Source of the DNA: an uncultured bacterium
GTDB lineage: Bacteria; Vulcanimicrobiota; Vulcanimicrobiia; Vulcanimicrobiales; Vulcanimicrobiaceae
Direction of reading: 5' to 3'
DNA length: 23,062 bases
Assembly: GCA_964602255.1 (NCBI GenBank)
Contig: CAZRQS010000021.1
Location: forward strand, 1 to 23,062
The notes beneath the pieces are model-generated. The model ran no database searches and was not told where the DNA came from. It saw only the letters and a list, made by a program, of their open reading frames with translations. Position numbers and translations under genes: made by a program. This document shows, piece by piece, positions 13,628 through 16,973 of the stretch; position 1 is the first letter of the stretch; each line of letters opens with the position of its first letter.

Positions 13628-14962
13628 TTAGAGCATGTACACTGCGTCGGAGCCGTAGGTTGGATAACCGAACACCGTATCGCGTAGCTGTGATACCGGC
13701 AAGCGGTAGCGAATTGCAAGCGTGAAGACATTAATGAGTTCCTCAGCACCGGGGCCTAGGATGTGTGCGCCCAGCACGCGGTCTTCCGTCTTGTGTACGA
13801 TCACTTTGTATTCCGCGTACGTTTCACCGACGCGCCGGTACGAATACCAATCCGTCATATCGCCCGCATTGACGGTGACGGTCGCCGGATCTACCTCATT
13901 TTCGCGAGCGCCCACCGCAGCAAGTGTCGGATTTGTGAAGACAAGGGACGGTATTGCCTCAAGCCGCGCCTCGCGGCGGTTACCGTTCAAAATGTTTTCC
14001 GCCACGATGTCGCCGGTTAGGCCTGCGACGGGGGTGAGTGGAAATTGCACTGATTCGGCGGCATCGCCCGCAGCATACACTTTGGGGTTTGATGTACTTT
14101 GCAAATACTCGTTGACACTTACGCCCTTTTTAGAATACGTAACGTGTCCGGTTTGCAGATCGAGCTCTTCGATTTCCGGCAAGCGGCCCGCACCGTGCAC
14201 AACCAGATCGGCGTTATAGCTCTTCCCGTCGGCATGTACGCGAAAAGAATCGCCGTGGCGCTCAACGCTCTGGACGCTCGTTTCAACGTGTACGTCAACG
14301 CCCGCCGCCTGCGACGCCTCGACAAGCCGGGCTACGAGATCCGCGTCAAATCGTTCTAGCGGTCGGGCGCCGCGATGCAGAATCGTCGCCTTTGCTCCGG
14401 ATCGCGCTGCGACGTGCGCAAATTCAAACGAGATATAACCACCGCCGATGAAGACAATGCTTTGCGGAAGGGTCTGAAGGTTTAGAAACTCCTCACTGGT
14501 CCGCACGTGTTCCTCACCGGCAATCCCAAGCTTAGCGGGATGCGCGCCCGCAGCGATAACAATTGCACTGGCTCGCAGTATCTCGCCGTTTATCGCAATT
14601 GTGGTCGGATCGCTAAATCGTGCGACGCCATGAAATGTGCTGATACCGGCGTCGCGAAAAGAGGATTCGCGGTTCGCCGGCACGGGGTCGGTGAACGTAT
14701 GTTTGAAACGCATGAGTGCCGGCCAATCGATGGAGATCGCTCCGTTCAGTGAATGCGTGTTCCTGATCGCGCCCCATCGGTGCACGATCTCCTCGGCTCC
14801 AACCAGTACCTTTTTCGGATCGCAGCCGCGAAGCGCACACGTGCCGCCAAACGGTCTTTTGTCAATGATGGCAACCTTGCGTCCGGCTTCTGAACAAGCG
14901 AAAGCAACGCTGGAACCCGCCGCCCCGGTGCCGATAACGATTACGTCAAAATCATGCGTCAT
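13628..14962 (-). CDS. Class-I pyridine nucleotide-disulfide oxidoreductase (MerA/RclA/Lpd-like), non-canonical active-site context
   Basis: FAD fold 'DFDVIVIGTGAAGSSVAFA', a redox-active C-x4-C 'GGTCALRGCDPKK', an NAD(P) fold 'IVFIGGGYISFEFA', and a C-terminal interface 'VFGYPTYGSDAVYML'. It has neither the His-Pro base of GR/Lpd nor the C-terminal Cys-Cys of MerA. Confidence 0.9.
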   Translation of the reverse strand: MTHDFDVIVIGTGAAGSSVAFACSEAGRKVAIIDKRPFGGTCALRGCDPKKVLVGAEEIVHRWGAIRNTHSLNGAISIDWPALMRFKHTFTDPVPANRESSFRDAGISTFHGVARFSDPTTIAINGEILRASAIVIAAGAHPAKLGIAGEEHVRTSEEFLNLQTLPQSIVFIGGGYISFEFAHVAARSGAKATILHRGARPLERFDADLVARLVEASQAAGVDVHVETSVQSVERHGDSFRVHADGKSYNADLVVHGAGRLPEIEELDLQTGHVTYSKKGVSVNEYLQSTSNPKVYAAGDAAESVQFPLTPVAGLTGDIVAENILNGNRREARLEAIPSLVFTNPTLAAVGARENEVDPATVTVNAGDMTDWYSYRRVGETYAEYKVIVHKTEDRVLGAHILGPGAEELINVFTLAIRYRLPVSQLRDTVFGYPTYGSDAVYML

Positions 14963-15093: not shown

Positions 15094-15693
15094 ATGCTAC
15101 TGCCCATGAATGAAGAACGTTACGGGTCTACGCTTCCCAAGCAAGGCCTCGAATCACCGGATCAGCGAACACGCGATCTCCTAGCCCATGCAAAGCAGCG
15201 CGCCGGCATGCTTCCTAACATGTACGCGTTCATGGCAAATGCGCCGGAATTGCTGGAGACCTACCTCTACGGCTACGAACGATTCCGCAAGGACTCAGGC
15301 CTAACGCCGGCCGAGCAGGAGGTCGTTTTCCTAACTCTCAGCTACGAAAACGGATGCGATTATTGCATGGCTGCGCACAGCGCTATCGCTGACACGCAAT
15401 CAAAGGTTCCTCACGAAGTAACCGAGGCGATCCGTGCCGGCGCACCGATCCCTGATGCAAAACTCGCCGCCCTAGCGGCTTTCACCCGCGCGATGCTCAC
15501 GAGGCGCGGACGTCCATCGCAACAGGATGTGGCGTCATTCGTAGAGGCGGGATATACCGAAAAACAGGTGCTTGACATCATTTTGGCGTTAGCCATCAAG
15601 ACGTTGAGCAACTACGCGAATCACATTTTCGCGACGCCGCTGGATACCTGGTTTAAAGTGCGTGAGTGGAAACCGCTGACGACGGTGAGCTAA
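15094..15693 (+). CDS. Carboxymuconolactone decarboxylase-family (AhpD-like) protein with CxxC
   Basis: The signature 'LSYENGCDYCMAAH' is the AhpD/CMD peroxidase-related core. The start is ambiguous: ATG 15094 or 15106, with no strong SD. Confidence 0.8.
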   Translation: MLLPMNEERYGSTLPKQGLESPDQRTRDLLAHAKQRAGMLPNMYAFMANAPELLETYLYGYERFRKDSGLTPAEQEVVFLTLSYENGCDYCMAAHSAIADTQSKVPHEVTEAIRAGAPIPDAKLAALAAFTRAMLTRRGRPSQQDVASFVEAGYTEKQVLDIILALAIKTLSNYANHIFATPLDTWFKVREWKPLTTVS

Positions 15694-16892
15694 GCTTTAC
15701 GAGTCGCGACCACCAGCAAGGCGACCGCTACGATCGCGACGGCGTTGCCCACCAACGTAAGACGATCGTTTAGTGCCATCGAACCGACAGAGATGCCGCC
15801 GAACGCATTGCCAATCGTCGCCCCCATTATGCCTCCCGCCACGATCGCACCAAAGGCAAAGAGGCCGACGAACGTCCACGTTATGCGGGGCGGAAACGAT
15901 TTGCGGTAGATCGCGACGAGCGGTGGGACAAGCAGATCCCCGTAAATGAATGTTGTGTTTGCCCCGAGCGGAATCCCCGCGTTTGCCAAAAACCGCGCGA
16001 CAGGCACATTCCCCATGGAACAGACGAACGTGGCCACTGCAATAAGCAAGCCTAGAATTAGCAATAAGAGATAGCCGACGTGCGGAACTGAACCGACGTT
16101 GTGCAGTGCGTGCGACAGCCACTGTGGCGGAACGAGCGCGGCTGCAAACCCTGCAATCAGATACCCGGTGATAAGTTCTGTTCGGAGCATGCGCACGTCG
16201 TTCATCGCCGTCTCGGCGACGTTTTTCCAGGTGTTGAGATCGCGCAGGGACTCACGTTCTTTGGGCCCTCGCGCCCTCTCACGGACACAATTTTCCAGCT
16301 GGGCGGCTAGATCGTTATAATGCTTCCTCCCGCAGGCGAGGTATGTTTGCCCACGGTACTCAACCGCTAGATCGCGTTGGCCTTCCATGCCGCAGATCGG
16401 ACACTCCGTTAGCACTGCTCGTTTATGAACGAAGGGTGACGGATGCTCCCTTGCAAGCTGCTCGAGTTCTCGCGCTTTAAATAGCAGCGAGAAACCTGCT
16501 GTAACGATGGCGATGATGATAATGCCGCCAAAGAATTCGGCAAAGGCGAATTTCCAGCCGAGCAGGGACCAAAATAGAATCAGGATCGCAACGTTCATGT
16601 TCGTCGACGAGACAAGAAACGAAAAGATCGAACGGATATCCGCGCCGCGCTGGTAGAAGCCGCGCGCAGCCGCTGCTGACCCATATGAGCACGAGGAGGA
16701 TATGATTCCGAATCCGGCGCCATACAAAATGCCACGGAGATTGGCACCAAGATAACGGTGCATATCGGCCGGCGTAAGTGCTACCTGGACGATAGCCGAA
16801 ATTAGAAAACCGAATACGAGCCCGTAAAGGCTGTCCCACAGAAAGCCAACCGACTGCAGTAAACCGGCGGCGACTGCATGCAGAATGGTCAT
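15690..16892 (-). CDS. DUF318/ArsP-like two-repeat permease with an inserted cytoplasmic YHS metal-binding domain
   Basis: Two homologous membrane halves each carry a conserved Cys-Ser motif (IISSSCSYGS; TFVCSMGNVP), as in ArsP/YraQ permeases. The central loop 'ECPICGMEGQRDLAVEYRGQTYLACGRKHYNDL' matches the YHS domain pattern (CGM...EY.G.TY..C...H). Confidence 0.75.
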   Translation of the reverse strand: MTILHAVAAGLLQSVGFLWDSLYGLVFGFLISAIVQVALTPADMHRYLGANLRGILYGAGFGIISSSCSYGSAAAARGFYQRGADIRSIFSFLVSSTNMNVAILILFWSLLGWKFAFAEFFGGIIIIAIVTAGFSLLFKARELEQLAREHPSPFVHKRAVLTECPICGMEGQRDLAVEYRGQTYLACGRKHYNDLAAQLENCVRERARGPKERESLRDLNTWKNVAETAMNDVRMLRTELITGYLIAGFAAALVPPQWLSHALHNVGSVPHVGYLLLLILGLLIAVATFVCSMGNVPVARFLANAGIPLGANTTFIYGDLLVPPLVAIYRKSFPPRITWTFVGLFAFGAIVAGGIMGATIGNAFGGISVGSMALNDRLTLVGNAVAIVAVALLVVATRKA

Positions 16893-16973
16893 TTTCTGAG
16901 GAATTACCTGCTGAACCGAGGGCCTGCGTTTTGGCTCATCGCCCGAGCATACCCATCCGCTGCGCTTTTAAGA

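What the first reader, a model, noticed from the sequence alone, without database searches (positions are those of the whole stretch)
15690..16892. ArsP/DUF318-type permease with an embedded YHS metal-binding domain, co-transcribed downstream of merA
Two-repeat DUF318 permeases with conserved Cys-Ser pairs include the organoarsenical efflux permease ArsP. Here the central cytoplasmic loop carries a complete YHS motif (CPICGM...EYRGQTYLAC..H), a domain otherwise found on Cu-ATPases and metal-trafficking proteins. The 81-bp gap after merA is consistent with a single transcript. This is a candidate second Hg(II)/organomercurial or thiophilic-metal transporter, distinct from MerT/MerF/MerC/MerE/MerH.
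Basis: partly seen in the sequence, partly recalled or inferred. Interest (0 to 1): 0.6.

Follow-up and report, generated by a model that had tools for sequence, protein, structure and literature searches.

The report
Soft-metal permease parked behind merA
The gene encodes a membrane transporter for sulfur-loving metals with a small metal-binding domain in its central loop; it belongs to a common, uncharacterised family whose closest relatives are controlled by a copper sensor, and it sits next to the mercury reductase gene only in this one population.

Summary
The ORF (15690-16892, minus strand, 400 aa) is real. It is a clear ArsP_1/DUF318 permease (PF03773, E 1e-56), and it lies 81 bp after a genuine merA (TIGR02053, 537 bits, C-terminal CC).

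The loop motif on its own fails the Pfam YHS model (13 bits against a cutoff of 30). A profile of orthologous loops, however, retrieves bona fide YHS domains in Cu-ATPases, a CusB-like protein and other ArsP_1 permeases. The loop is therefore a divergent YHS/TRASH domain with Cys3His ligands.

The mercury link is not conserved:
- About 48 YHS-bearing relatives were examined, and none has merA next to it.
- Six of the relatives, mostly the closest, carry a CsoR-type copper repressor gene or a CsoR operator.
- The closest MerA orthologues sit in the same arsR-merT-X/merA cassette but have no permease.

The locus already has a MerT importer.

Best reading: this is a Cu(I)-type soft-metal efflux permease that has been placed secondarily behind merA. 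It is probably co-transcribed with merA and so Hg-induced. The transport direction and any Hg activity are untested. This is an ordinary member of a known kind.

Side finding: gene X, next to merT, is an unannotated thioredoxin-like lipoprotein. It has an in-frame UGA (U-G-M-C) and a hairpin found only in the Sec forms, which makes it a likely selenoprotein.

The parts
15690..16892 (-). ArsP_1/DUF318-family permease, 400 aa
   Evidence: PF03773 E 1.2e-56. Weak hits to the SO_0444 Cu/Zn efflux model (68.6 bits) and SaoE (50.4 bits), both far below their cutoffs. AF2 model with mean pLDDT 88.2, pTM 0.86.
16278..16424 (-). Central-loop YHS/TRASH-like domain (about residues 157-205); ligands C164, C167, C187, H191
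   Evidence: The motif C-x2-C-G-M-E-G...Y-x-x-C-G-x-K/R-H is present in 96 of the top 120 homologues. 21 of 30 orthologous loops hit PF04945. The loop profile retrieves bona fide YHS proteins. The model shows a beta-hairpin at 172-186 followed by helices, with pLDDT 81-92.
16680..16697 (-). SSCSYG motif (C68-S69), between predicted helices 52-65 and 69-81
   Evidence: S66, C68, S69, Y70 and G71 are invariant in 102 sequences.
16008..16025 (-). VCSMGN motif (C291-S292), between predicted helices 273-288 and 295-304
   Evidence: C291 to P297 are invariant. This motif aligns with the C68 motif in hhalign, but not significantly (E 0.13).
16893..16973 (-). 81-nt merA-permease spacer
   Evidence: No promoter-like or terminator-like site. 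No CsoR-box palindrome, only a weak half-site resemblance (E 0.13).
16974..18362 (-). merA, core type without the NmerA domain; the real start is probably the ATG at 18350
   Evidence: TIGR02053 536.6 bits against a cutoff of 454. C-terminal CC pair. Homologues of 456-461 aa cover 98% of it.
18351..18386 (.). Overlapping divergent sigma-70-like promoters for arsR (+) and merA (-); both transcripts are probably leaderless
   Evidence: TTGACA-16-TATAAT (12/12, TG-extended) on the + strand and TTGACT-17-TATGAT on the - strand. The -10 boxes end 7-8 nt before the ATGs at 18386 and 18350. The leaderless reading is an inference.
18377..18745 (+). ArsR/SmtB-family regulator, CmtR-like (C-x3-C in the recognition helix plus a C-terminal Cys)
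   Evidence: PF01022 E 3.7e-17. The best NCBIfam equivalog is CmtR at 73 bits, below its cutoff of 150. Sequence.
18755..19129 (+). MerT-like Hg(II) importer (ACCVGP in TM1; CVRRPSC cytoplasmic pair)
   Evidence: PF02411 34.7 bits against a cutoff of 32.9, E 2e-8. Weak NCBIfam MerT models also hit.
19134..19706 (+). Gene X: thioredoxin-like lipoprotein with in-frame TGA at 19308-19310 (SPT-U-G-M-C-LRG); a candidate selenoprotein and part of the mer cassette, not of the permease
15094..15693 (+). Convergent AhpD/CMD-family gene whose stop overlaps the permease stop; this marks the end of the merA-permease unit
   Evidence: PF02627 E 1.8e-10. The same gene follows the permease in relative L007 and in L091/L092.
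13628..14962 (-). Glutathione-reductase-like flavoprotein disulfide reductase without a C-terminal CC, so not MerA
   Evidence: Orthologues (48-54% identity) lie next to the permease in L006, L007 and L013.

Best explanation
The ORF encodes a secondary transporter of the ArsP/DUF318 family from an Eremiobacterota (Baltobacteraceae) genome. Two invariant membrane-embedded cysteines (C68, C291) sit at the tips of two predicted helical hairpins. A Cys3His YHS/TRASH domain sits in the large, positively charged central loop, which is presumably cytoplasmic.

Most likely it is an efflux permease for soft, thiophilic metal ions. The ancestral substrate is Cu(I); Hg(II), Ag(I), Cd(II) or Zn(II) are possible. 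In this model the loop domain captures or senses the cytoplasmic metal and passes it to the bis-cysteine site, or gates that site.

In its closest relatives the gene is the second gene of a csoR-permease operon, behind a CsoR operator that overlaps the promoter. In this population a four-gene mer cassette (merA divergent from arsR-merT-X) lies immediately upstream in place of csoR. The permease is therefore probably read through from the ArsR-controlled merA promoter and expressed on Hg(II) exposure. It is a secondary juxtaposition, not a conserved mer component.

Shown here: family membership, the domain, residue conservation, genomic contexts and promoter motifs. Inferred: substrate, direction of transport, loop topology and co-transcription.
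For: Family and motifs:
- PF03773 hit.
- C68 and C291 are invariant.
- The AF2 model places both cysteines between short helix pairs.
- The fold weakly resembles elevator-type carriers, which bind substrate at hairpin tips (TRAP SiaQM, NaCT, YdaH; TMq 0.44-0.48).

Loop domain is YHS:
-. The hits include a Cu P-type ATPase (P0139) and a CusB-like protein (P0187).
- Close homologues that lack the domain carry a His/Cys-rich loop instead (STCHEHA, GHHHMHG), so the loop is always metal-binding.

Copper link in relatives:
- A csoR-family gene is translationally coupled upstream in L001 (74% identity), L002 (69%), L010 (73%), L086 (80%, the closest relative) and L107.
- The CsoR proteins have the C-H-C fingerprint (AYC...RHHFLNC). 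Palindromes of the form ACATACCCCTCCCnGGGnGGGGTAT overlap TTGACA/TATAAT promoters.
- L088 (77% identity) has the box without an adjacent csoR.
- The best NCBIfam match of the CsoR proteins is the Cu sensor RicR.

Literature on the family:
- SO_0444 is needed under Cu/Zn stress (PMC3219624).
- A DUF318 gene in Shewanella loihica is highlighted as a heavy-metal efflux gene in a zinc-stress fitness figure (bioRxiv 072470).
- ArsP exports MAs(III) (PMC6205960).

Juxtaposition to merA is secondary:
- 0 of about 48 YHS-bearing contexts elsewhere have merA.
- The closest MerA cassettes lack the permease.

Co-transcription is plausible: the 81-nt gap has no promoter or terminator motif.
Against: - No experiment exists on any member of this clade.
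- The direction of transport is inferred only from characterised distant relatives and from CsoR logic.
- CsoR linkage is seen in only 6 of about 48 contexts. Many relatives have no metal gene nearby; some, for example, have dnaG-rpoD downstream.
- An Hg(II) exporter in the same regulon as the MerT importer would partly oppose it.
- The window's own YHS sequence is among the most divergent of the clade: its C-terminal half has lost the F-x-ADP-x-RY signature.
- Promoter and terminator scans are consensus-based and may miss Eremiobacterota signals.
Confidence: 0.6

Rival explanations
1. One reading: the permease is a dedicated second Hg(II) or organomercurial uptake system. It delivers mercury to the NmerA-less MerA, with the YHS loop acting as the cytoplasmic hand-off site.
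For: - It lies directly behind merA with no visible terminator, and the junction is reproducible.
- This MerA lacks the N-terminal metallochaperone domain.
- TRASH-domain proteins are associated with mer genes in Sulfolobus (PMC3466566).
- A bis-thiolate site would suit Hg(II).
Against: - A MerT importer with both Cys pairs is already in the cassette.
- The closest MerA orthologues, also NmerA-less, have no permease.
- No other YHS-permease neighbours merA.
- Characterised family members are exporters.
- The closest relatives are controlled by CsoR.
Confidence: 0.15
2. There is no functional connection to mercury. The permease is a housekeeping Cu, Zn or other metal homeostasis transporter, expressed from its own unrecognised promoter in the 81-nt gap, and merA merely landed next to it.
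For: - The family is near-universal in Eremiobacterota and its contexts are very variable.
- The insert-less sister form is an operon partner of a VIT1 gene in 36 of 61 loci.
- The window spacer keeps a weak resemblance to the right half of the CsoR box/-10 region (E 0.13).
Against: - No sigma-70-like promoter and no terminator were found in the gap, whereas perfect promoters are detectable 1.4 kb upstream.
- The window has no csoR gene and no intact operator.
Confidence: 0.2
3. It is an ArsP-type organoarsenical (MAs(III)/roxarsone) efflux permease.
For: It shares the Pfam family (ArsP_1) and has two conserved cysteines. The ArsP function is described in PMC6205960.
Against: - The window has no ars genes. 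The ArsR-family regulator is CmtR-like and belongs to the mer cassette.
- The metal-ion-binding YHS or His-rich loops and the CsoR control point to metal cations.
Confidence: 0.05

Closest known systems
SO_0444-family Cu/Zn efflux transporter (NCBIfam NF033936; Shewanella oneidensis SO_0444)
   Same: It has the same Pfam family and is the best NCBIfam hit. SO_0444 is co-operonic with a metal-sensing regulator (ZntR there, CsoR in this clade's relatives) and is required under Cu/Zn stress.
   Different: The score of 68.6 bits is far below the cutoff of 300, so the window protein is not a member. SO_0444 and SaoE share a C-S-C motif, whereas here the motif is C-S-Y, with a second Cys in the other half (C-S-M). 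No YHS loop is described for SO_0444.
ArsP organoarsenical efflux permease (Campylobacter jejuni; TCDB 2.A.119)
   Same: The family fold is the same, and conserved cysteines are implicated in transporting a thiophilic substrate.
   Different: There is no ars context. The metal-binding loop and the Cu-sensor regulation in relatives also differ. Whether the cysteines are at equivalent positions was not tested, because no CjArsP sequence was available.
YHS/TRASH domains of Cu P-type ATPases and other metal-trafficking proteins (PF04945; Ettema et al. 2003; M. phlei adenylyl cyclase YHS as a Cu sensor, PMC4626032)
   Same: The sequence signature is shared (C-x2-C-G-M ... G-x-T-Y-x-x-C ... F-x-x-D-P-x-x-Y), and the loop profile cross-hits these domains. 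A 'permease' with YHS/TRASH is already listed in PMC4626032, Fig. 1B.
   Different: The fourth ligand is His rather than Cys (C-G-x-K-H in place of C-S-x-x-C). The domain is inserted in a transporter's central loop rather than at a terminus. The window copy is below Pfam's threshold.
Streptomyces-type mer locus (ArsR-family repressor, merT and others, divergent from merA)
   Same: The window has an ArsR-family regulator and merT divergent from merA, with overlapping promoters. ArsR control of mer in S. lividans is cited in PMC3466566.
   Different: Neither merP nor merB is present. Instead there is a thioredoxin-like (seleno)lipoprotein after merT, and in this population only, the YHS permease after merA.

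Membership tests
Pfam PF03773 ArsP_1 / DUF318 (TCDB ArsP family) | HMM score above the gathering threshold over most of the model | tested here: met
   192.5 bits against a cutoff of 32.3; model positions 12-292 of 294.
SO_0444 Cu/Zn efflux transporter (NF033936) | NCBIfam equivalog score of at least 300 | tested here: not met
   68.6 bits.
SO_0444 Cu/Zn efflux transporter (NF033936) | Conserved C-S-C tripeptide (per bioRxiv 2022.07.06.499078) | tested here: not met
   The corresponding motif is S-S-C-S-Y-G, and Y70 is invariant.
ArsP organoarsenical efflux permease | Location in an ars operon | tested here: not met
   No ArsC, Acr3, ArsB, ArsM or ArsH was found among the window ORFs scanned.
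ArsP organoarsenical efflux permease | MAs(III)/Rox(III) transport dependent on conserved cysteines | not testable with these tools
   Needs a transport assay. Two invariant cysteines are present.
YHS domain (PF04945) | Pfam gathering score of 30.3 bits | tested here: not met
   12.5-13.5 bits, E 0.08-0.15 for the window's own loop.
YHS domain (PF04945) | Homology shown through a family profile | tested here: met
   21 of 30 orthologous loops hit YHS (best 1.3e-6). The loop profile finds 1638 proteins, and 9 of 10 tested carry YHS at E 1e-17 to 1e-68.
YHS domain (PF04945) | Four metal-ligand positions, (C/D)-x2-C ... C-x3-C | tested here: inconclusive
   C164, C167 and C187 are present, but the fourth position is H191. 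This Cys3His pattern is conserved across the clade. Metal binding was not tested.
mer-operon transporters (MerT/P/C/F/E/H) | Homology to a known mer transporter | tested here: not met
   Only ArsP_1 is hit. MerT is a separate gene at 18755..19129.
mer-operon accessory gene (any type) | Conserved synteny with merA across lineages | tested here: not met
   No other YHS-bearing locus has a MerA orthologue nearby (13 genome loci, 30 metagenome loci, and the contigs). The closest MerA cassettes lack the permease.
CsoR-regulated copper efflux operon | Adjacent csoR gene or CsoR operator upstream | tested here: not met
   The window has neither. The feature is met in relatives L001, L002, L010, L086, L088 and L107.

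The most novel reading that the evidence does not exclude
In this Baltobacteraceae population a copper-type YHS permease has been captured by a mer operon. It now works as a new kind of mercury transporter. Its Cys3His loop would exchange Hg(II) directly with the C-terminal cysteine pair of an NmerA-less MerA, as importer hand-off or as overflow export. That would be a transporter class not on the MerT/P/C/F/E/H list.
Probability: 0.15. Interest if true: 0.6.

Novelty: new member of a known kind. Interest (0 to 1): 0.3.

Why it matters
ArsP/DUF318 permeases are widespread, yet only a few are characterised. This work shows three things about the Eremiobacterota clade:
- It carries a Cys3His YHS loop that Pfam misses.
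- Its closest members are under CsoR control, which gives a concrete, testable substrate prediction: Cu(I) efflux.
- The merA adjacency is a one-off juxtaposition. This guards against over-annotating such permeases as mercury transporters.

The more valuable by-product is the conserved four-gene mer cassette (merA divergent from arsR-merT-X). Its gene X belongs to an unannotated thioredoxin-like family that occurs in both Cys and Sec forms.

Tried and rejected
- **Pfam on the window loop alone.** YHS was not significant, so the question was settled with orthologue profiles instead.
- **Loop profile against PDB sequences.** It gave only AK9/CFAP276 YHS-like repeats (E 1e-3) and chance zinc-ribbon hits.
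- **Foldseek of the whole model against PDB.** No solved relative was found, only weak similarity to elevator-type carriers.
- **hhalign of the N-half against the C-half.** The internal repeat is not significant (E 0.13).
- **CsoR gene or box in the window.** None was found. A 20-nt resemblance to the L088 box has E 0.13 and was rejected as evidence.
- **Second MerA hypothesis.** The GR-like neighbour lacks the C-terminal CC and scores below the MerA cutoff, so this was rejected.
- **Base composition.** There is no anomaly around the mer genes, so it gives no evidence for recent transfer.
- **Rfam and tRNA scans of the window.** Both were empty.
- **Literature.** The search for the ArsP cysteine positions found nothing, and the original ArsP paper is not held. 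The search for merT + selenocysteine + thioredoxin returned only noise.
Full report
**Observation.** The ORF 15690..16892 on the minus strand encodes 400 aa. It matches Pfam PF03773 (ArsP_1, formerly DUF318) at E 1.2e-56 over nearly the whole model. NCBIfam gives only weak, sub-threshold hits to the SO_0444 Cu/Zn efflux family (68.6 bits, cutoff 300) and to SaoE (50.4 bits, cutoff 325). The gene upstream on the same strand (16974..18362) is a genuine core-type MerA. It scores 536.6 bits on TIGR02053 against a cutoff of 454, has the active site GGTCVNIGCVPSK, ends in ...SCCAT, and lacks the NmerA domain. The spacer is 81 nt. A consensus scan finds no promoter-like or terminator-like site in it, although it finds perfect promoters 1.4 kb upstream. 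The same merA-permease junction is present in six contigs from at least two independent sequencing runs. The adjacency is therefore real.

**The loop domain.** Scanned alone, the window's loop scores only 12.5-13.5 bits against Pfam YHS, whose gathering score is 30.3. The motif C-x2-C-G-M-E-G-...-(T)Y-x-x-C-G-x-K/R-H is nevertheless present in 96 of the 120 best homologues (58-80% identity).
- In an alignment of 30 such loops (A2), C164, C167, C187 and H191 are invariant.
- Of the 30 members, 21 hit Pfam YHS at E<=1, the best at 1.3e-6.
- A profile of A2 searched against 1.84 billion representative proteins finds 1638 proteins at E<=1e-3.
- Nine of ten top hits tested carry Pfam YHS at E 1e-17 to 1e-68. 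They include an HMA+YHS copper P-type ATPase, a CusB-like protein and two other ArsP_1 permeases with two or three YHS copies in the same loop.

The loop is therefore a divergent YHS/TRASH domain with a Cys3His ligand set. The window's copy is among the most degenerate, having lost the C-terminal F-x-ADP-x-RY signature. Close homologues without the domain (355-374 aa) have a short His/Cys-rich loop instead (STCHEHA, GHHHMHG). A metal-binding central loop is thus a constant of the clade.

**Structure.** An AlphaFold2 model built on 102 sequences is confident (pLDDT 88.2, pTM 0.86).
- The invariant C68 (SSCSYG) and C291 (VCSMGN) each lie in the short turn between two helices: 52-65/69-81 and 273-288/295-304.
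- Foldseek finds no solved relative. The only matches (TMq 0.44-0.48) are elevator-type carriers that bind substrate at hairpin tips, namely TRAP SiaQM, NaCT, YdaH and VcINDY.
- hhalign of the two halves puts C68 opposite C291, but not significantly (E 0.13).
- The central loop is rich in Lys and Arg. YHS domains are described as cytosolic modules (PMC4626032). A cytoplasmic location of the loop is inferred, not shown.

**Genomic context in the window.** Divergent from merA are three genes:
- an ArsR/SmtB regulator (18377..18745; PF01022), whose best equivalog is CmtR and which has C-x3-C in the recognition helix plus a C-terminal Cys;
- a MerT-like protein (18755..19129; PF02411 above its cutoff), with ACCVGP in TM1 and a CVRRPSC pair;
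- gene X (see 'Noticed in passing' below).

The two promoters overlap. TTGACA-16-TATAAT lies on the + strand and TTGACT-17-TATGAT on the - strand, both within 18351-18386. Their -10 boxes end 7-8 nt before the ATGs at 18386 and 18350, which suggests leaderless mRNAs (inference). Downstream of the permease is a convergent AhpD/CMD gene, followed by a glutathione-reductase-like flavoprotein that lacks the MerA C-terminal cysteines.

**Comparative context.** All close homologues come from Eremiobacterota (Baltobacteraceae, Vulcanimicrobiaceae, Cybelea and others).
- Among 80 species-representative genome loci, none besides the window has a MerA orthologue near the permease. The oxidoreductases adjacent in L006, L007 and L013 are orthologues of the GR-like gene (48-54% identity), not of MerA (27-29%).
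- Among 80 further metagenome loci, 30 carry the YHS insert and none has MerA nearby.
- The nearest relatives instead show a copper signature. A PF02583 (CsoR/RcnR) gene overlaps the permease start in L086 (80% identity, the closest relative), L001 (74%), L010 (73%), L002 (69%) and L107.
- These repressors have the Cu(I)-type C-H-C fingerprint, and their best match is the copper sensor RicR.
- Palindromes of the form ACATACCCCTCCCnGGGnGGGGTAT overlap TTGACA/TATAAT promoters upstream.
- L088 (77% identity) has the same box 35 nt upstream of the permease with no adjacent csoR.
- The window has neither csoR nor an intact box.
- Many other relatives have no metal gene nearby.
- The insert-less sister form follows a VIT1-family gene at -4 to 55 nt in 36 of 61 loci.
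- Seen from the merA side, the two closest MerA orthologues (70% identity) lie in the same cassette, X-merT-arsR divergent from merA, but are followed by unrelated genes.

**Interpretation.** The conserved unit is the four-gene mer cassette, and the permease is a resident gene of a different regulon. Characterised members of the family are exporters of thiophilic substrates: ArsP for MAs(III) (PMC6205960) and SO_0444 for Cu/Zn (PMC3219624). Combining this with CsoR control in the nearest relatives, I conclude that the protein is most likely a Cu(I)-type soft-metal efflux permease. In this population it has come to lie behind merA and is probably expressed with it. Whether it moves Hg(II), and in which direction, cannot be decided computationally. 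The importer reading is weakened by the presence of MerT and by the absence of the permease from sister cassettes.

**Novelty.** ArsP_1 permeases with YHS loops are already in the databases. A YHS/TRASH 'permease' was listed in PMC4626032, and TRASH proteins near merA are known from Sulfolobus (PMC3466566). The present case is a new, uncharacterised member with a Cys3His variant and a one-off mer juxtaposition. Interest is modest.

**Noticed in passing.** The two small ORFs after merT (19134..19310 and 19314..19706) are one reading frame interrupted by TGA. Read-through gives a 190-residue lipoprotein with the sequence ...LLLVSPT-U-G-M-C-LRG....
- Of 116 homologues, none has a Pfam or NCBIfam model.
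- Fifty are full-length and have SPT-C-G-x-C. Sixty-six are truncated gene calls, many of which start exactly at the Met of G-M-C.
- Three further loci (L093, L095, L100) have TGA at the same column. All four Sec forms share the hairpin CUUCGG(G)-GGUCU/GGCC-(C)CCGAAG starting 12 nt after the UGA. The two TGC (Cys) forms (L097, L099) lack this hairpin.
- The gene lies next to merT, with either an ArsR or a MerR regulator, in every locus examined.
- One homologue is fused to a MerP-like HMA domain.
- The AF2 model of a Cys form (pLDDT 91.4) matches ResA, TlpA, DsbE and Sco1.

Gene X looks like an unrecognised, MerT-associated, extracytoplasmic thioredoxin-fold (seleno)protein. It may be a functional analogue of MerP.

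Noticed in passing
window 19134..19706 (+), TGA at 19308-19310: Two ORFs called separately (58 aa and 130 aa) are one frame interrupted by TGA. Read-through gives a lipoprotein with SPT-U-G-M-C-LRG at the position of a thioredoxin-fold CxxC. Half of its 116 homologues are full-length with Cys at that position, and half are truncated gene calls. Four Sec forms share a hairpin (loop GGUCU) 12 nt after the UGA that the two Cys forms lack. The family has no Pfam or NCBIfam model and is found next to merT in every locus examined. One homologue is fused to a MerP-like HMA domain. The AF2 model resembles ResA, TlpA and Sco1. It is a likely new mer-associated selenoprotein family.
   Followed up: yes
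window 18351..18386: Perfect overlapping divergent sigma-70-type promoters sit between arsR and merA. Their -10 boxes end 7-8 nt before the ATGs at 18386 and 18350, implying leaderless transcripts and start codons later than the longest ORFs suggest.
   Followed up: partly
window 18377..18745 (+); L001 3930..4274: The mer regulator is ArsR/SmtB-type with a CmtR-like C-x3-C in the recognition helix plus a C-terminal Cys (best equivalog CmtR, below cutoff). A 55%-identical regulator in L001 precedes a GR-like reductase, then csoR and the permease.
   Followed up: partly
window 13628..14962 (-); L006, L007, L013: A glutathione-reductase-like flavoprotein disulfide reductase (GGTCALRGCDPKK, no C-terminal CC) recurs next to the YHS permease in three relatives and lies two genes away in the window. 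Its function is unknown, and it may belong to the same thiol/metal stress island.
   Followed up: partly
L016-L083 (36 of 61 insert-less loci), e.g. L017 5168..5989: The permease form that has a His/Cys-rich loop instead of YHS is preceded by a VIT1-family (Fe/Mn transporter) gene at -4 to 55 nt. This suggests a different metal specificity for that sister form.
   Followed up: partly
L100 6009..6806 (+), downstream of the closest merA orthologue: Another pair of ORFs is split by a single in-frame stop (...YTASVT*PMT...); the codon itself was not read. With Cys substituted at the stop, the product hits the iodothyronine-deiodinase-like and AhpC/TSA families. It may be a second candidate selenoprotein; if so, these lineages decode Sec.
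   Followed up: partly
window 16974..18515 (-) and L091 2642..3919: The merA start is inconsistent between sources. The longest ORF adds 51 spurious residues. The automatic gene call in the public contigs (425 aa) removes the FAD-binding GxGxxG. Homologues support about 458-462 aa.
   Followed up: yes
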